A stretch of DNA of 64,000 bases from Halioglobus sp. (lineage in GTDB: Bacteria; Pseudomonadota; Gammaproteobacteria; Pseudomonadales; Halieaceae). Position numbers and translations under genes: made by a program. Location of the stretch: contig JAGRIE010000014.1 of assembly GCA_020443425.1 (NCBI GenBank), forward strand, positions 12,119 through 76,118. Reading direction: 5' to 3'. The notes beneath the pieces were generated by a model, which saw only the letters and a list, made by a program, of their open reading frames with translations, ran no database searches and was not told the DNA's origin. Below are positions 38,106-42,323 of this stretch, one piece after another (positions within the stretch are counted from its first letter, which is position 1; each line of letters begins with the position of its first letter).

Positions 38106-40136
38106 TCACTGCGCACTGACCGGCGTCGCCCGGCCCCGCTGCAGCCGTCCGAGGTGGCGGGTGTAGGTGGCGGGAGAAAACGGCCTGCCCAGGAACGCCT
38201 CCACCATATCTGCTGCAGGCTTGCTGCCGGCAGCGGCGAGTATCTGTTCCCGGTAATCGCGGGCGGTACCCTTGTCGCGCAGTCCATGGCGCTGGAAACG
38301 GCTGAACAAGTCCATCGAGATAGCCTGCGACCACTGGTAGATATAGTAGTTCGACGAATAGCCATTCAGGTGGCGGAAGTTGTTGTAGAAGTGTGTGCCC
38401 TGCACATACGGATAGGGTGAATGCTGGGCCTGTAATTCTCTCATCAGCGGCAGCAGTTCGAAGCTGCCGGGGTCGCGGTTGTGGTAGTGGAGCGCGAGAT
38501 TGGCATAGAAAACCTGTGTACGGGTGTTGGCCGCTTCGCCAAAGTGCTGGGCAGCGTTCATTGTCTCCACCAGGGCCGGAGAGATGCGCTGGCCCTGATC
38601 ATTGATGGCTAACTCGCGCAATGTCTCGTAGTGCCACGCCCACTGTTCCAGCAGTTGCGACGGTGCCTCGACAAAGTCGCGCTCCATGGTCATGCCGGCG
38701 ATATCCAGCCATCGCTGGGTGCCGGAAAACATATTGTGCAGCAGATGGCCGAACTCATGCAGGAAGGACTCCACCTGCTTATGCTCCATCAGGCCACGCG
38801 GGAAATTGGTCGCCATGCCGGACAGGGGTATCTGCCTGTCCTTCAGGCCCGCGCGCAGGGTCCAGTGCGCGGCGTGGCCGTACTTGTTGTCCCGTGGATG
38901 CATGTCGAGGTAGAAACGCCCGATGGCCCTGCCCTGTTCACGGATCTCCCACGCCGTGACATCGGGGTGCCAGGTCGGGGTCTGCCACGGCACGATCCGG
39001 ACACCAAACAGGTCTTCGGTGAGAGCAAAGATTCCGCTCTGTACCCGGTCGAAATGAAAGTAGTTGCGGATCTCTCGCGCATCCAGTGCGTATTCCTCCT
39101 GCTGTACCAGGTTTGTCAGCCAGTCGACCTGCCATGCCTGCACTTGCTGTGCCTGCGGGTCGACCCGCTGCAGGCGCGAGAGCAGGGTATCAACGTCGCT
39201 GTTCGCGGGGGATTGCAGCGCTGAGTCCAGCGCTGCCAGGAACTGCTGGACAGTCTGTGGGCGGGCGGTCATCAGCCCGTCCATTGCCAGGGCGGCGTGG
39301 CTGTCATATCCCAGCAATACGGCCAGTTCATGGCGGCGCGATAACAGCCTCTCCAGGGTCTCGGTGTTGGAGGGGGTGGCGATACTTTTGGCGGCCTTGA
39401 ACAGGCGGTGGCGCAGTTCATCGCTGGATGCGTATTTCATTACCGGGAGGTAGTCGGGGTAGTCCGTCGAAATCGTCACGAGACCCTGTTCGTCCACCGG
39501 GTGTGCGTCCACAAAATCCCGGGGTAATCCCGCCAGTTGGGCCGGGGTAACCTGAACGTAGCGCTTGTCGAGGCGGATGGCTTTCTCAAAGCGGCTGCCG
39601 AGATCCGTAATGTCGGTGACCAGCGCGCGCACCTGCTTGCGGGTGGCCGCATCGCGGTCGACACCTGACTGTCGAAACAGCCTGAGTTTCCTGTCGACCA
39701 TGTAGCGCTCCTGGTCGCTGGCCTCGCTCAGGTCGATTGCCGCAACCCTCTGGTAAAAAGCCGGGGACAGATTCATGGCGACGATGAAATCCGTGTACTG
39801 AGAGATGCAGCGCTCGGCGGCTGTCTGCACGCCGGGCGACGGGTGTACGGCTTTCATGTACCAGATATGCTGGATTGGCTGCAGGTCTGTCAGTATTGCG
39901 TCGTAGGCGCCGTAAACCCGCTGCAGAGTGGCCGCTTGCGTATCCTGTTCGAGCCTGCCGAAAGCCTCGCGGGCAGTGGCCAGGGTGCTGTCGCACAGCG
40001 CTGTGAGCCCGGCGCCGGTGAGTGTGTAGTCCCAGCCATCGCGGGCGCTGGAGTGAGAGCTGTCCGCCGCGACGGCGGTGCCGAGGGTGAACCACATCCA
40101 GATCGCGACAGGCACGGCGAGTCGGATTGCTGTCAC
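38106..40136 (-). CDS. M3A (thimet oligopeptidase-like) zinc metallopeptidase with predicted signal peptide
   Basis: HEFGHLLH, DFVEAPSQLLE, FYLDMHPRDNKYGHAA, YYIYQWS. GTG start follows GGAGGT. Confidence 0.92.
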   Translation of the reverse strand: MTAIRLAVPVAIWMWFTLGTAVAADSSHSSARDGWDYTLTGAGLTALCDSTLATAREAFGRLEQDTQAATLQRVYGAYDAILTDLQPIQHIWYMKAVHPSPGVQTAAERCISQYTDFIVAMNLSPAFYQRVAAIDLSEASDQERYMVDRKLRLFRQSGVDRDAATRKQVRALVTDITDLGSRFEKAIRLDKRYVQVTPAQLAGLPRDFVDAHPVDEQGLVTISTDYPDYLPVMKYASSDELRHRLFKAAKSIATPSNTETLERLLSRRHELAVLLGYDSHAALAMDGLMTARPQTVQQFLAALDSALQSPANSDVDTLLSRLQRVDPQAQQVQAWQVDWLTNLVQQEEYALDAREIRNYFHFDRVQSGIFALTEDLFGVRIVPWQTPTWHPDVTAWEIREQGRAIGRFYLDMHPRDNKYGHAAHWTLRAGLKDRQIPLSGMATNFPRGLMEHKQVESFLHEFGHLLHNMFSGTQRWLDIAGMTMERDFVEAPSQLLEQWAWHYETLRELAINDQGQRISPALVETMNAAQHFGEAANTRTQVFYANLALHYHNRDPGSFELLPLMRELQAQHSPYPYVQGTHFYNNFRHLNGYSSNYYIYQWSQAISMDLFSRFQRHGLRDKGTARDYREQILAAAGSKPAADMVEAFLGRPFSPATYTRHLGRLQRGRATPVSAQ

Positions 40137-40227: not shown

Positions 40228-40272
40228 AAAAAAAAGCACCGCCCGCCACCACGGTCGGGAGCGGGCAGTGCT
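40228..40272 (-). terminator. Intrinsic terminator after the MFS gene
   Basis: Minus strand AGCACTGCCCGC...GCGGGCGGTGCT followed by T8. Confidence 0.8.
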
Positions 40273-40286
40273 GGAGCGTCGCCGCG

Positions 40287-41513
40287 TCAGTTGGCGGCGA
40301 CGACCTGGCGGTTCTCACTGGCCTCCTCTTTGCGTATGCGCGCTACCAGCGGTACCAGCACCACGGCCAACAGTGGTGCAAAGATCGCCAGCAGTATCAG
40401 CAGTGTCGAGGTGACGCCATATCGGTCCAGCGCATAGCCCAGCAGTGGGCCGGTGCCGATAAAGATCGCGCGCACCGCCAGGCTGACCAGCGAGTTGACG
40501 GTGGCGCGAAAGTTTCCCGGTACCCGCCGATTCAGGGCTTCGTAGAAGAGGCTCATGCTCAGTCCCCTGGATATCTGCAGGGCGAAGCCGAACATGACCC
40601 CGATCCATCCTGCACCCAGGGCCATACCGAGCAATCCCAGCAGCGGCAGCGTGCCTATCAGCAACAGGACGCGGTGCGTACCCAGACGCTGCTCCAGCGC
40701 GCTGGCGTAATTGGCGGATACGCTCACGGTGAGCGCAAACGCCGCCCAGATATAGCCATTCCACTCTATCGGGACGCCCTGGAACTCCCAGTATTTCTGG
40801 TAGATCCAGAATACATACACCGCCAGCAGGCCAAATGCCGCAATAGCGAAGGCTGTCCACAGCACCACGGGCTTACCGAACAGCAGTAACTCCAGAATGG
40901 AGCGCGCGTTATTGCGGTGGTTGACCTCGATAACCGGTCGCGGCACCTCGACCAGTGCCAGCGCCAGCAGCAGTGGCATAAGCCCGATCACGGCCTGTGC
41001 GATGACGACGGCATCAAGCGACCACAACAGCAGCAGGCTGGCGATGATACCGGCGATGCCGGACGCGGCGGCCTCGATGGAAATCAGGCGGCTAAGCGAC
41101 TTACTGGTTGTGGTGCTGCCTTCGCCGCCCTGCTCCTGCAGGTACACCTCGGTATCAAACAACAGCGCCAGATCAGCGCCTGAGACCAGGCTGAAACCAA
41201 GGCCGAGGATCACCTCGTAGATCAGGAAATCGACGAAGCTGTCGGCCAGCAACAGGAATAAAAAGCCAATCGCGAAGAACACCGCTCCCAGCAGTATCGC
41301 GCGACGCCTGCCCCAGATGTCAGCAATGTAACCGGAGGGGACTTCGAACAGCGCGATGGTCAATGCGAACAGGGCCTGGGTCTGCAGGACCTCGTTCATG
41401 GACAGGTCGTGGCCCTGCAGCAACGGCACGAACACGGGGTTGATCACCATAAAGCTGTTGAAAAATCCCAACAGGTAGATGTTACGGATATTGTTGTGTA
41501 AAGACTTGTTCAC
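40287..41513 (-). CDS. MFS transporter of unknown substrate (YxaM-like)
   Basis: About 12 TM segments; FEVPSGYIADIWGRR motif A; RVPGNFRATVNS. GTG start follows AAGGA. Confidence 0.9.
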   Translation of the reverse strand: MNKSLHNNIRNIYLLGFFNSFMVINPVFVPLLQGHDLSMNEVLQTQALFALTIALFEVPSGYIADIWGRRRAILLGAVFFAIGFLFLLLADSFVDFLIYEVILGLGFSLVSGADLALLFDTEVYLQEQGGEGSTTTSKSLSRLISIEAAASGIAGIIASLLLLWSLDAVVIAQAVIGLMPLLLALALVEVPRPVIEVNHRNNARSILELLLFGKPVVLWTAFAIAAFGLLAVYVFWIYQKYWEFQGVPIEWNGYIWAAFALTVSVSANYASALEQRLGTHRVLLLIGTLPLLGLLGMALGAGWIGVMFGFALQISRGLSMSLFYEALNRRVPGNFRATVNSLVSLAVRAIFIGTGPLLGYALDRYGVTSTLLILLAIFAPLLAVVLVPLVARIRKEEASENRQVVAAN

Positions 41514-41570
41514 TTTCCTTGTCCCATTGTTGCCCGGGACCCTGAAAGCGGAGGCGTTTCTTGCGAGAAT

Positions 41571-41610
41571 AAAAAAAGGCCTCCGGAATCAGGGTTCTCG
41601 GAGGCCTTTT
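41571..41610 (-). terminator. Intrinsic terminator in the MFS 5' leader (attenuator terminator)
   Basis: Minus strand AAAAGGCCTCCG-agaaccctgattc-CGGAGGCCTTTTTTT, 57 nt upstream of the MFS start. Confidence 0.85.
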
Positions 41611-41626
41611 CTAAAGAGTGTCTACT

Positions 41627-41734
41627 TTAAGCGCTTCCAAAAACCTCGCTGTCCGCCCACAGGCAGACGGCGCGCATCACGGCGATTGAGCCGTGGCGCA
41701 CGGGGGTGCTTGTCTGTTTGAATGCGGTGTTCAT
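41627..41734 (-). CDS. Putative leader peptide (35-aa uORF) MNTAFKQTSTPVRHGSIAVMRAVCLWADSEVFGSA
   Basis: Lies between a sigma70 promoter and the terminator; its stop is 16 nt before the terminator; its Glu-Val-Phe codons can pair with the terminator 5' arm. Confidence 0.6.
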   Translation of the reverse strand: MNTAFKQTSTPVRHGSIAVMRAVCLWADSEVFGSA

Positions 41735-41783
41735 GGTGTTCACTTCAGTGTCAATCATTCGGTGTGCCGGTTGGCAGCGGCGA

Positions 41784-41812
41784 ATAATGCGCCCGCATTT
41801 TTTGCGCGTCAA
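41784..41812 (-). promoter_or_regulatory. Putative sigma70 promoter for the leader and MFS gene
   Basis: Minus strand TTGACG-17-CATTAT. Confidence 0.65.
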
Positions 41813-41945
41813 TCGAAGAATGCAAAACGTGGAATAGTTCACAGCCCTGTGTGCACCCGGCCGTGCGGGGATCGAGTTTGGAATGGGGGCTCCACAGCCG
41901 GCATTTTTCGCGCTATCCTCCCGGGTTCGCCAAAGGAGAGAGCCG

Positions 41946-42323
41946 ATGATAAAACAATCTGTAAGCGCCGTGGTGTTCAGCCTGCTGGCCGCGATGCCCG
42001 CTGTCCACGCCGATGAACTGGCCGATGCGGCACAGGCCTTGTGTGAGAAAGTGAAATCCTGCGCGATGGCGCAGATGGAGGGGCAGGAGCTCACCCCCGA
42101 GACCCGCCAGATGATGCAGCCCATGCTGGACAGCATGTGTACGCAAGTCCGCAGCAGGGTCAGTGCAGTGCCTTCCAGTCACGCCTTGTACCAGCCGGCA
42201 GTCGCCTGTATGCAAAGCATGAACACACTGACCTGTGAGAACATGCAGGATGCAGGTGAGATTGTGACCCCGGAATGTGAGGAATACGAGCAGCTGGTGA
42301 GTGAGTCCGGCGCCGCGAACTGA
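41946..42323 (+). CDS. Exported Cys/Met-rich hypothetical protein (125 aa)
   Basis: RBS AGGAGAG; signal peptide ending VHA|DE; 6 Cys and 9 Met in the mature part. Confidence 0.8.
   Translation: MIKQSVSAVVFSLLAAMPAVHADELADAAQALCEKVKSCAMAQMEGQELTPETRQMMQPMLDSMCTQVRSRVSAVPSSHALYQPAVACMQSMNTLTCENMQDAGEIVTPECEEYEQLVSESGAAN

What the first reader, a model, noticed from the sequence alone, without database searches (positions are those of the whole stretch)
41513..41812. Candidate new ribosome-dependent attenuator controlling an orphan MFS transporter
Seen, minus strand in order: sigma70 promoter (41812-41784); 35-aa uORF (41734-41627); a his/thr-style terminator 16 nt later (AAAAGGCCUCCG...CGGAGGCCUUUUUUU); then the MFS GTG at 41513. 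The uORF segment GAGGUUUUU (Glu-Val-Phe codons, 41647-41639) can form 9 consecutive pairs (2 G-U) with the terminator 5' arm AAAAGGCCUC, which makes an antiterminator. Two hairpins lie earlier in the uORF (CACGGC/GCCGUG and GUCUGCC/GGCGGAC). A ribosome reaching the stop would mask the antiterminator, while stalling at or before the Cys-Leu-Trp codons would free it. Unlike classical amino-acid leaders there is no run of one codon (single Trp, single Cys). Inference: the signal could be a single-codon Trp/Cys sensor, or a TnaC/SpeFL-like arrest peptide sensing a metabolite or ribosome-targeting antibiotic that the MFS transports.
Basis: partly seen in the sequence, partly recalled or inferred. 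Interest (0 to 1): 0.75.

Follow-up and report, generated by a model that had tools for sequence, protein, structure and literature searches.

The report
Translated leader attenuator of MFS gene
The roughly 300-base stretch in front of this marine bacterium's transporter gene is a real, deeply conserved control element: a short translated reading frame folded into competing RNA hairpins, a strong transcription stop signal, and a second RNA lock on the transporter's ribosome-binding site.

Summary

The organism is a Halioglobus (Halieaceae). The same leader precedes the orthologous MFS gene in 91 of the 92 evaluable upstream regions. These span Halieaceae and two further GTDB families. The leader was found upstream of nothing else and matches no Rfam family.

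- **The uORF is translated.** Its ATG is invariant in 71/71 sequences. Every length change between the ATG and a 3' anchor is a multiple of 3, across 8 length classes.
- **The peptide is weakly conserved.** Conserved residues, including Cys-Leu-Trp, lie in RNA helices that covary.
- **New findings.**
  - The uORF start region pairs with its stop region.
  - UGCCUGU has two alternative partners, and both covary.
  - The terminator loop and 3' arm pair with a post-terminator segment (35 loop variants, p=5.5e-12). That segment can otherwise mask the MFS ribosome-binding site.

Best reading: a ribosome-dependent transcription attenuator joined to a translational lock. A ribosome that reaches the uORF end allows termination. 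A delayed ribosome gives readthrough and an open ribosome-binding site. The signal is unknown. The Trp/Cys-sensor and TnaC-like arrest-peptide ideas are not supported.

The parts
41828..41843 (-). CRP-type palindrome TGTGAACTATTCCACG (TGTGA-N6-TCACA, 2 mismatches), centred about 58-61 nt upstream of the inferred transcription start
   Evidence: a match with at most 2 mismatches (22 perfect) lies with its centre 23-24 nt upstream of the -35 hexamer in 42 of 91 loci (44 have such a match within 150 nt). Binding by a CRP/Vfr-type regulator is inferred, not tested.
41784..41812 (-). Sigma-70 promoter TTGACG-17 nt-CATTAT; transcription start inferred near 41777
   Evidence: 9 of 12 matches, the only minus-strand site in 1.5 kb. 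A TTGAC-type promoter is found at the same place in 75 of 91 loci (visible).
41765..41776 (-). 5'-terminal stem-loop UGCC-AACC-GGCA at the start of the transcript
   Evidence: Predicted. The stem is kept with different sequences in relatives (GUGCC..GGCAC, GCGCC..GCGC, GUGCU..AGCAC, read by eye). A role in mRNA stability is inferred.
41627..41734 (-). 35-codon upstream ORF (ATG 41734, TAA 41629-41627), with a purine-rich weak SD AAGUGA at 41745-41740
   Evidence: ATG invariant in 71/71 sequences. The ATG-to-anchor distance takes 8 values (74-107 nt), all equal to 2 mod 3. Frame 0 is open for at least 26 codons in 71/71. A uORF is present in 95 leaders from three GTDB families.
41671..41700 (-). 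Hairpin A (GCGCCACGGC / GCCGUG..AUGCGC) inside the uORF
   Evidence: 7 of 8 pairs show changes on both sides (for example GC:50, AU:10, UA:3) and 87% of cells are paired. G-U pairs fix the strand as minus.
41651..41668 (-). Hairpin B (GUCUGCC-UGUG-GGCGGAC); its 5' arm and loop carry the Cys-Leu-Trp codons
   Evidence: 6 of 6 counted pairs show changes on both sides.
41711..41717 (-). Segment c (ACAGACA), the alternative partner of UGCCUGU (41665-41659). It extends hairpin A into a long rod and excludes hairpin B
   Evidence: 5 of 7 pairs show changes on both sides (column 80/142 GC:39, AU:17). The same column 142 also covaries with its hairpin-B partner. Predicted with mean pair probability 0.60 across 71 sequences. 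In the window itself one pair is an A-C mismatch.
41629..41647 (-). 3' box of the uORF, GAGGUUUUUGGAAGCGCUU (family consensus GUGGUUUGAGGAAGCACUU, with the stop codon UGA inside it). It pairs either with the uORF start region or with the terminator 5' arm (candidate antiterminator strand)
   Evidence: It is the most conserved stretch of the uORF. Start-region to stop-region pairing is -11.45 (native) against -9.18 kcal/mol (foreign), p=1e-9. GGUUU:AGGCC is paired in 92% of cells with no double change. The motif is read in another frame in the Congregibacter clade.
41571..41610 (-). Intrinsic terminator: A-tract 41610-41607, 5' arm GGCCUCCG 41606-41599, loop AGAACCCUGAUUC 41598-41586, 3' arm CGGAGGCC 41585-41578, U7 41577-41571
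   Evidence: 98% of cells paired and the stem is almost invariant in 89 sequences. It is a single copy in its own genome. In 401 genomes of the order, 14 of the 17 pattern matches lie just upstream of this MFS family and 3 do not.
41539..41555 (-). Post-terminator segment X' (GCCUCCG-CUU-UCAGGGU), complementary to the terminator 3' arm and loop
   Evidence: 35 distinct loop variants with compensating changes in X (for example ACCAGA/UCUGGU, ACACUGAA/UUCAGUGU, GGAUCCAGGAU/AUCCGGGAUCC). Native energy is -13.5 against -10.8 kcal/mol for foreign loops, p=5.5e-12. GGAGG:CCUCC is paired in 94% of sequences.
41511..41540 (-). Hairpin that sequesters the ribosome-binding site: GUCCC (41540-41536) pairs with the SD-like GGGAC (41525-41521), just before the MFS start GUG 41513-41511. 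Its 5' arm overlaps X'
   Evidence: Predicted. In relatives the arms change together (GGUUCUC/GAGAACC, GGUACUC/GAGUACC), and UUCC/GGGA has 24 doubly changed cells. The swap test gives p=0.0016. Holding the terminator 5' arm unpaired raises the unpaired probability of -14..+3 from 0.35 to 0.48, in 75 of 91 sequences, p=3.5e-12 (0.24 to 0.52 in the window).
40287..41513 (-). MFS transporter gene (408 aa), substrate unknown
   Evidence: Pfam MFS_1, E=1.6e-21. Only weak sub-threshold NCBIfam matches to drug-efflux and other MFS families. No PDB relative by sequence. Sources name it only 'MFS transporter'.
40228..40255 (-). Terminator-like hairpin with a T-run about 30 nt after the MFS stop codon, making the unit monocistronic
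   Evidence: Neighbouring genes are not conserved among loci.

Best explanation
This is a ribosome-dependent transcription attenuator joined to a translational lock. It controls one monocistronic MFS transporter gene.

**Layout.** Transcription starts at a sigma-70 promoter, probably helped by a CRP-type activator site. The leader RNA carries a translated uORF of about 30-35 codons. The two halves of the uORF pair with each other, so its own SD/AUG region pairs with its stop-codon region.

**Transcription step.** The 3' box of the uORF (GAGGUUUUUGG here, GUGGUUUGAGG in most relatives) can instead pair with the 5' arm of a strong intrinsic terminator.
- If a ribosome translates the uORF to its end, it covers that box. 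The terminator then forms and transcription stops.
- If the ribosome is delayed in the first two thirds of the uORF, the box is free and pairs with the terminator 5' arm. RNA polymerase then reads through.

**Translation step.** In a readthrough transcript whose terminator did not form, the free loop and 3' arm capture the post-terminator segment X'. That segment would otherwise mask the MFS Shine-Dalgarno and GUG region, so the decision taken during transcription is passed on to translation. Transcripts that leak past a formed terminator keep the ribosome-binding site masked.

**Shown here:** the elements, the reading frame, the covarying helices, the loop-X' co-evolution and the exclusive link to this MFS family.

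**Inferred:** the direction of regulation, the identity of the antiterminator and the signal. The signal is most likely slowed or stalled translation in general, for example from translation inhibitors or starvation, rather than one amino acid.
For: **The frame is translated.** The ATG is invariant. All indels are multiples of 3 across 8 length classes. Frame 0 is open in 71/71 sequences. A uORF is present in 95 leaders, down to 50% MFS identity.

**The terminator is conserved and specific.** It is nearly invariant, a single copy in the genome, and apart from three unrelated hairpins found only in front of this MFS family in 401 genomes of the order.

**The structures compete.**
- Hairpins A and B and the alternative helix c:c' all covary, and one column covaries with two different partners.
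- Start-to-stop-region pairing co-evolves. It is predicted across 71 sequences.

**A ribosome would control the antiterminator (in silico).** Pairing of the terminator 5' arm with the stop-proximal box was computed under a ribosome mask.

| Ribosome position | Family mean | Window |
|---|---|---|
| none | 0.26 | 0.69 |
| first codons | 0.46 | 0.77 |
| last codons | 0.04 | 0.1 or less |

**Second tier.** The terminator loop co-evolves with X (p=5.5e-12). Blocking the 5' arm refolds the loop and 3' arm onto X' and opens the ribosome-binding site (p=3.5e-12).

**One transcript.** No promoter lies between terminator and gene.

**Experimental analogues exist.** bmrB-bmrCD (PMC4191407) and msrDL-msrD (PMC10314930) are ribosome-mediated attenuators upstream of transporter or resistance genes.
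Against: - There are no expression data.
- The antiterminator has no compensatory change. Its complementarity to the 5' arm is only modestly above shuffles (-8.5 against -7.0 kcal/mol). It is the best window of the uORF in only 23 of 95 leaders.
- Equilibrium folding always prefers the terminator once its 3' arm is present, so the model depends on kinetics.
- In the window, the antiterminator is predicted even without a ribosome (0.69). The state without translation is therefore ambiguous.
- The SD of the uORF is weak.
- There is no codon run and no strongly conserved peptide, so the signal is unidentified.
- The CRP-like site hints at a nutrient transporter, which fits less well with an antibiotic-stress signal.
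Confidence: 0.62

Rival explanations
1. The leader is a structured cis-regulatory RNA, riboswitch-like or bound by a protein or sRNA. Its helices sense a ligand or factor that decides between terminator and antiterminator. The uORF is translated but is secondary, for example helping to reset or unfold the RNA.
For: - RNA pairing constrains the sequence much more than the peptide does.
- The conserved 3' motif GGUU(U/C)GAGGAAGC is read in different frames in different clades. Its GGAAGC part has no identified partner.
- The terminator stem and loop start (GGCCUCCGAGAAC) are far more invariant than an ordinary terminator.
Against: - The strict conservation of an ATG-initiated frame with indels only in multiples of 3 is unexplained if translation is irrelevant.
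- There is no Rfam match.
- The element accompanies one gene family only. Most riboswitch classes control several gene types.
- No conserved multi-helix junction or unpaired conserved pocket stands out. Conserved residues lie mostly in helices.
Confidence: 0.15
2. The promoter, uORF and terminator form a separate small gene, either an sRNA or a 35-aa protein. The MFS gene is expressed only by leaky readthrough. The terminated RNA may then act in trans through its loop on the MFS 5' UTR.
For: - The unit has its own promoter and a very strong terminator.
- A terminator loop that pairs with a site next to a ribosome-binding site resembles antisense or kissing control. Pairing in trans would give the same covariation.
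- Terminated attenuator RNAs acting in trans are known, for example rnTrpL (PMC7968998).
Against: - The peptide is poorly conserved, not hydrophobic, and unrelated between clades.
- The element is always placed 51-78 nt upstream of the same gene, with no promoter in between. X is therefore present only on readthrough transcripts.
- The competing helices inside the uORF are what an attenuator needs. A stable sRNA does not need them.
Confidence: 0.12
3. The nascent peptide is an arrest peptide (TnaC/SpeFL-like) that senses a metabolite or drug, or the single Trp or Cys codon senses charged tRNA.
For: - PVCLW is the best-conserved peptide stretch in the main clade, and the stop codon is mostly UGA.
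- Thr at codon 3 occurs in 63 of 95 leaders and uses all four Thr codons.
- A CRP-type site combined with a leader peptide recalls the tna operon (the tna comparison is from general knowledge).
Against: - Trp and Cys are replaced in several lineages, and the peptide is unrelated in the Congregibacter clade and in distant families.
- The CLW codons lie in two covarying helices, which explains their conservation.
- Compensatory changes in hairpin A alter the amino acids (G to D, A to V).
- Entropy is nearly flat across codon positions.
- AC of codon 3 is part of the start-stop helix.
- Termination is intrinsic, not Rho-dependent.
Confidence: 0.08

Closest known systems
Classical leader-peptide attenuators of amino-acid operons (trpL, hisL, thrL, pheL)
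   Same: A short translated ORF sits in a leader with mutually exclusive hairpins. An intrinsic terminator precedes the structural gene. A ribosome at the end of the ORF masks the antiterminator strand. The logic maps onto four segments: 1 = 5' half of the uORF, 2 = 3' box, 3 and 4 = the terminator arms.
   Different: There is no run of regulatory codons. The regulated gene is a transporter, not a biosynthetic operon. Segment 1:2 is a long-range helix that also hides the uORF's own start site. A fifth segment after the terminator couples the outcome to the downstream ribosome-binding site.
bmrB-bmrCD of Bacillus subtilis (ribosome-mediated attenuation of a multidrug ABC transporter; PMC4191407)
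   Same: A leader ORF holding alternative stem-loops and an intrinsic terminator controls a transporter. It has no amino-acid codon run. An additional transcription factor acts at the promoter (AbrB there, a CRP-type site here).
   Different: The host is Gram-positive and the transporter is ABC rather than MFS. The terminator there lies inside the bmrB coding region. No post-terminator element that unmasks a ribosome-binding site is described there. Induction by translation inhibitors is shown there and untested here.
msrDL-msrD (macrolide-sensing leader peptide; PMC10314930)
   Same: A ribosome stalled on a leader ORF obstructs a Rho-independent terminator.
   Different: MsrDL is a short, sequence-specific arrest peptide that senses a bound drug. 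Here the peptide is weakly conserved, and the ribosome is proposed to act through an RNA antiterminator rather than by direct obstruction.
tnaC-tnaAB of E. coli (general knowledge)
   Same: A CRP-dependent promoter is combined with a leader peptide upstream of genes that include a permease.
   Different: TnaC has strictly conserved W12, D16 and P24, senses free Trp and blocks Rho-dependent termination. None of these features holds here.
Riboswitches with dual transcriptional and translational expression platforms (general knowledge)
   Same: One upstream decision controls both an intrinsic terminator and sequestration of the ribosome-binding site.
   Different: The sensor here appears to be a translating ribosome, not a ligand-binding aptamer. 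There is no Rfam match.

Membership tests
Ribosome-dependent (leader-peptide) transcription attenuator | A short ORF in the leader that is translated | tested here: met
   Comparative evidence only. The ATG is invariant, all indels are multiples of 3 across 8 length classes, and the frame is open in 71/71 sequences. The ORF is kept in 95 leaders. No ribosome profiling was available.
Ribosome-dependent (leader-peptide) transcription attenuator | An intrinsic terminator between the leader ORF and the structural gene, on the same transcript | tested here: met
   Searches show the terminator. No promoter lies downstream of it. Loop-X co-evolution links both sides of it.
Ribosome-dependent (leader-peptide) transcription attenuator | An antiterminator that shares a strand with the terminator and is masked by a ribosome at the end of the ORF | tested here: inconclusive
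   The pairing is conserved (92% of cells) but has no compensatory change. It is modestly better than shuffles. Ribosome-mask folding behaves as expected.
Ribosome-dependent (leader-peptide) transcription attenuator | Readthrough changes when uORF translation is perturbed | not testable with these tools
   This needs reporter fusions or Term-seq.
Amino-acid-sensing leaders (trpL/hisL/thrL type) | A cluster of codons for the cognate amino acid in the stalling zone | tested here: not met
   The window has one Trp and one Cys, and both vary among relatives. Only Thr is somewhat enriched near the N-terminus, and this is confounded by RNA pairing.
Arrest peptides (TnaC, SpeFL, SecM, MsrDL, ErmCL) | Conserved peptide residues required for arrest | tested here: not met
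   The peptide diverges to about 30% identity within the genus and is unrelated in other clades. Entropy is nearly equal at the three codon positions.
Arrest peptides of the TnaC/SpeFL type | Rho-dependent termination downstream of the leader ORF | tested here: not met
   A canonical intrinsic terminator with a U7 tract is present and conserved.
Any curated RNA family (Rfam 15) | A match at or near the gathering score | tested here: not met
   The best hit in the window has E=0.39, far below threshold. No hits were found in six diverse leaders.
Antibiotic-responsive attenuators of efflux or resistance genes | The downstream gene is a resistance determinant and is induced by translation inhibitors | not testable with these tools
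   The MFS has only weak sub-threshold similarity to HP1165, TetA(P), Bcr/CflA and CraA efflux families. Induction was not tested.

The most novel reading that the evidence does not exclude
The terminator hairpin acts as a memory element. Its 12-nt loop is a toehold for the post-terminator segment X'. When the terminator 5' arm has been captured by the uORF's 3' box, because a ribosome was delayed, X' zips onto the loop and 3' arm and releases the MFS ribosome-binding site. When the terminator has formed but polymerase leaks through, X' stays on the ribosome-binding site. One co-transcriptional ribosome-sensing event would then gate both transcription and translation. It would be a general sensor of translation speed that needs no specific codon or arrest peptide, conserved across at least three families of marine gammaproteobacteria.
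Probability: 0.35. Interest if true: 0.75.

Novelty: new variant of a known kind. Interest (0 to 1): 0.6.

Why it matters
Leader-peptide attenuators are well known for amino-acid operons and for a few resistance genes, mostly in Firmicutes and enterics. This one is uncatalogued. It is conserved in abundant marine OM60/NOR5-clade bacteria and beyond. It lacks both a codon run and a conserved arrest peptide.

It also carries a co-evolving link between the terminator loop and the downstream ribosome-binding site. That link would transmit the transcriptional decision to translation.

If confirmed, it would give:
- a compact natural design for two-level, ribosome-sensed control;
- a lead to the unknown function of a widespread orphan MFS transporter;
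- a well-sampled family of about 95 sequences with rich covariation for studying alternative RNA folds within coding sequence.

Tried and rejected
- **Rfam.** Scans of the window at E up to 10 and of six diverse leaders at gathering thresholds found nothing.
- **RNAalifold.** On the MAFFT alignment it recovered only the terminator, because the variable hairpins are not aligned by structure. I replaced it with column scans, per-sequence ensemble folding and swap tests.
- **Unconstrained partner search.** Looking for the best partner of the terminator 5' arm gave inconsistent sites. The recurrent CCGG..GCCU site in the Pro-Val-Cys-Leu codons looked like a second antiterminator. It has essentially zero probability in ensemble folding and was dropped.
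- **First ribosome-mask model.** It counted any upstream partner, including an artefactual pairing with the 5' end, so I redid it with defined partner regions.
- **Ribosome-binding-site hairpin.** Column-based covariation failed because the pairing register differs between clades. The swap test is only moderately significant.
- **Neighbouring genes.** The M3 peptidase, the LA_2478-like secreted protein and the 773-aa lipoprotein are not conserved next to the MFS, so they give no clue to function.
- **MFS substrate.** NCBIfam, PDB sequence search and source names gave no assignment.
- **Earlier scan notes and literature.** Neither mentions this element.
Full report
**1. Observation**

- A TTGACG-17-CATTAT promoter lies at 41812-41784. 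It is the only minus-strand sigma-70-like site in 1.5 kb.
- A 35-codon ORF runs from ATG 41734 to TAA 41627 and encodes MNTAFKQTSTPVRHGSIAVMRAVCLWADSEVFGSA.
- Hairpin CACGGC/GCCGUG lies within 41700-41671. Hairpin GUCUGCC/GGCGGAC lies at 41668-41651.
- GAGGUUUUU is at 41647-41639.
- The terminator AAAAGGCCUCCG-(loop)-CGGAGGCC-U7 spans 41610-41571 and starts 16 nt after the stop codon.
- The MFS GTG is at 41513.

The 281-nt leader folds better than all 200 shuffles (z = -3.8). The downstream protein is an MFS_1 transporter. It has only weak sub-threshold resemblance to several efflux and uptake MFS families and no relative in the PDB by sequence. It has its own terminator-like hairpin at 40255-40238, so the unit is monocistronic.

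**2. Distribution**

Record titles place the window in a Halioglobus (Halieaceae, OM60/NOR5 clade).
- The MFS ortholog is present in 37 of 48 species genomes of the genus. It also occurs across Halieaceae: Haliea, Pseudohalioglobus, Seongchinamella, Mangrovimicrobium, Parahalioglobus, Congregibacter and NOR5-3.
- Of 92 evaluable, non-identical upstream regions, 91 carry the terminator at 51-78 nt from the MFS start.
- A degenerate pattern for the terminator gave 17 matches in 13 of 401 genomes of the order. Fourteen matches lie immediately upstream of an ortholog of this MFS (about 50% identity in two further GTDB families). The other three do not.
- The motif is a single copy in its own genome.
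- Flanking genes are not conserved.
- No Rfam family matches. Literature searches found no description.

**3. The uORF is a real reading frame**

In the 71-sequence main-clade alignment (A3):
- the ATG is invariant;
- the distance from the ATG to the conserved GGUUU anchor takes eight values (74, 83, 86, 89, 92, 98, 101 and 107 nt), all equal to 2 mod 3;
- frame 0 is open for at least 26 codons in 71/71 sequences, against 3/71 and 44/71 for the other frames.

A uORF of 26-57 codons is present in 95 leaders, including the distant families. The one clearly broken copy (L018) comes from a genome whose MFS is also frameshifted.

**4. The peptide is not what is conserved**

- Peptide identity falls to about 30% within the genus while the MFS stays above 70%.
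- Trp26 is M, H, S, F or L, and Cys24 is R or S, in some relatives.
- In most of the family the stop codon UGA lies inside the conserved RNA motif GUGGUUUGAGGAAGC. The window's subclade has lost that stop and runs four codons further. The Congregibacter clade reads the same motif in another frame, as GSRK.
- Compensatory changes in hairpin A change the amino acids (G to D, A to V).
- Mean column entropy is 1.02, 1.07 and 1.17 bits at codon positions 1, 2 and 3, and it is lower in helices (0.84-0.96) than outside them (1.34-1.58).

The frame must therefore be translated, but its sequence is shaped mainly by RNA pairing. This argues against a TnaC/SpeFL-like arrest peptide and against a single Trp or Cys sensor.

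**5. RNA structure inside the uORF**

Counting pairs on A3 gave:

| Helix | Pairs with changes on both sides | Note |
|---|---|---|
| Hairpin A | 7 of 8 | |
| Hairpin B | 6 of 6 | |
| Alternative helix ACAGGCA/UGCCUGU | 5 of 7 | extends hairpin A and excludes hairpin B |

Alignment column 142 (third base of the Cys codon) covaries with its partner in hairpin B (CG:41, UG:15, UA:10). It also covaries with its partner in the alternative helix (GC:39, AU:17). This is the signature of two mutually exclusive folds.

All whole-structure measures exceed the shuffles and the slid controls. G-U pairs fix the strand as minus.

Ensemble folding of all 71 sequences predicts a long rod in which the uORF start region (SD, AUGACCAC) pairs with the stop region (GUGGUU..CACUU). 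A swap test shows that this pairing co-evolves: native -11.45 against foreign -9.18 kcal/mol, p=1e-9.

**6. Antiterminator**

Both strands are nearly invariant, so there is no compensatory change. Complementarity of the stop-proximal window to the 5' arm is only modestly above shuffles.

I folded the nascent RNA, truncated after the 5' arm, with a 28-nt ribosome mask moved along the uORF. The probability that the 5' arm pairs with the stop-proximal box was:

| Ribosome position | Family mean | Window |
|---|---|---|
| none | 0.26 | 0.69 |
| first codons | 0.46 | 0.77 (codons 1-27) |
| last three codons | 0.04-0.08 | 0.1 or less (codons 29-35) |

This fits the classical logic. A ribosome that reaches the end allows termination, and a delayed ribosome allows readthrough. 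It remains a model result.

**7. A second tier after the terminator**

The segment 23-30 nt downstream of the U-tract (GCCUCCG-CUU-UCAGGGU in the window, UCAGGGUUCUC in most relatives) is complementary to the terminator's 3' arm and loop.
- Across 35 distinct loop sequences, the downstream segment changes in step. Examples are ACCAGA/UCUGGU, CCCAGA/UCUGGG, ACACUGAA/UUCAGUGU and GGAUCCAGGAU/AUCCGGGAUCC.
- Native loops bind their own downstream region better than foreign loops do: -13.5 against -10.8 kcal/mol, p=5.5e-12.
- The 3' part of the same segment pairs with the SD-like GGGA/GAGAACC just before the MFS GUG. This pairing covaries by eye (GGUUCUC/GAGAACC against GGUACUC/GAGUACC). The swap test gives p=0.0016.
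- When the terminator 5' arm is held unpaired, the loop and 3' arm fold onto X'. The unpaired probability of MFS positions -14..+3 then rises from 0.35 to 0.48, in 75 of 91 sequences, p=3.5e-12. In the window it rises from 0.24 to 0.52.

I infer that the terminator decision is passed on to translation initiation. The loop may act as a toehold for strand exchange.

**8. Promoter context**

A CRP-type palindrome (TGTGA-N6-TCACA) matches with at most 2 mismatches in 44 of 91 loci, 22 of them perfect. In 42 of those its centre lies 23-24 nt upstream of the -35 hexamer. In the window it is at 41843-41828 with two mismatches. This suggests control of initiation by a CRP/Vfr-like regulator, layered on the attenuator.

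**9. Comparison and verdict**

The element works like a leader-peptide attenuator and meets that family's structural criteria. The antiterminator and the functional response remain untested. Three things set it apart from the amino-acid leaders:
- it has no codon run;
- it controls a transporter gene rather than a biosynthetic operon;
- it has the post-terminator switch on the ribosome-binding site.

It differs from arrest-peptide systems because the peptide is not conserved and termination is intrinsic. The nearest experimentally studied analogues are bmrB-bmrCD (PMC4191407) and msrDL-msrD (PMC10314930).

I rate it a new variant of a known kind. The signal is unknown: general slowing of translation is my best guess, and a specific metabolite is not excluded.

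Noticed in passing
window 41828-41843 (minus strand): A CRP-type palindrome TGTGA-N6-TCACA upstream of the leader promoter. It matches with at most 2 mismatches in 44 of 91 loci (22 perfect), and in 42 of those its centre lies 23-24 nt upstream of the -35 hexamer. This suggests class-I-like activation by a CRP/Vfr-family regulator.
   Followed up: partly
window 41633-41638 (GGAAGC) and alignment A3 columns 177-182: The GGA(A/U)GC box just after the family's usual uORF stop codon is among the most conserved positions of the leader. I found no convincing pairing partner for it. It may be a protein- or ribosome-contact site.
   Followed up: partly
uORF codons 2-4 in 95 leaders (window 41731-41723): The N-terminus is M-(T/N/K/I)-T-L-like even in families with only 50% MFS identity. 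Thr at codon 3 occurs in 63 of 95 leaders and uses all four Thr codons. This could reflect selection on the peptide or tRNA, or only the AC needed for the start-stop helix.
   Followed up: partly
L018 (genome G020): Both the uORF (two 1-nt deletions) and the MFS gene (frameshift near residue 265) are disrupted in this genome. Either the whole unit is decaying there or the assembly has indel errors.
   Followed up: no
window 41946-42323 (plus strand): The divergent gene encodes a 125-aa Cys-rich protein with a signal peptide. It has a sub-threshold match to the LA_2478/LA_2722/LA_4182 family (NCBIfam, 29 bits against a cutoff of 38) and no Pfam domain. It is conserved next to the MFS only in close relatives.
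   Followed up: partly
window 40228-40255 (minus strand): A terminator-like hairpin with a T8 run about 30 nt after the MFS stop codon. It separates the MFS from the downstream M3 (oligopeptidase A/Dcp-like) peptidase gene at 38106-40136.
   Followed up: partly
window 41570-41612 (plus strand): Read on the plus strand, the terminator palindrome is followed by only UUUUCU. The A-tract/U-tract arrangement could give weak bidirectional termination of antisense transcription coming out of the MFS gene. The G-U pairs elsewhere in the leader show that the functional RNA is the minus strand.
   Followed up: no
L108 (Congregibacter sp. SGMAG-65): This is the one evaluable locus without a canonical terminator. 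A related hairpin (GCCUCCGAGAGCUGAAGACUCGGAGGC) lacks the U-tract and lies about 200 nt from the MFS start. It may be a lineage in which the attenuator has been remodelled.
   Followed up: no
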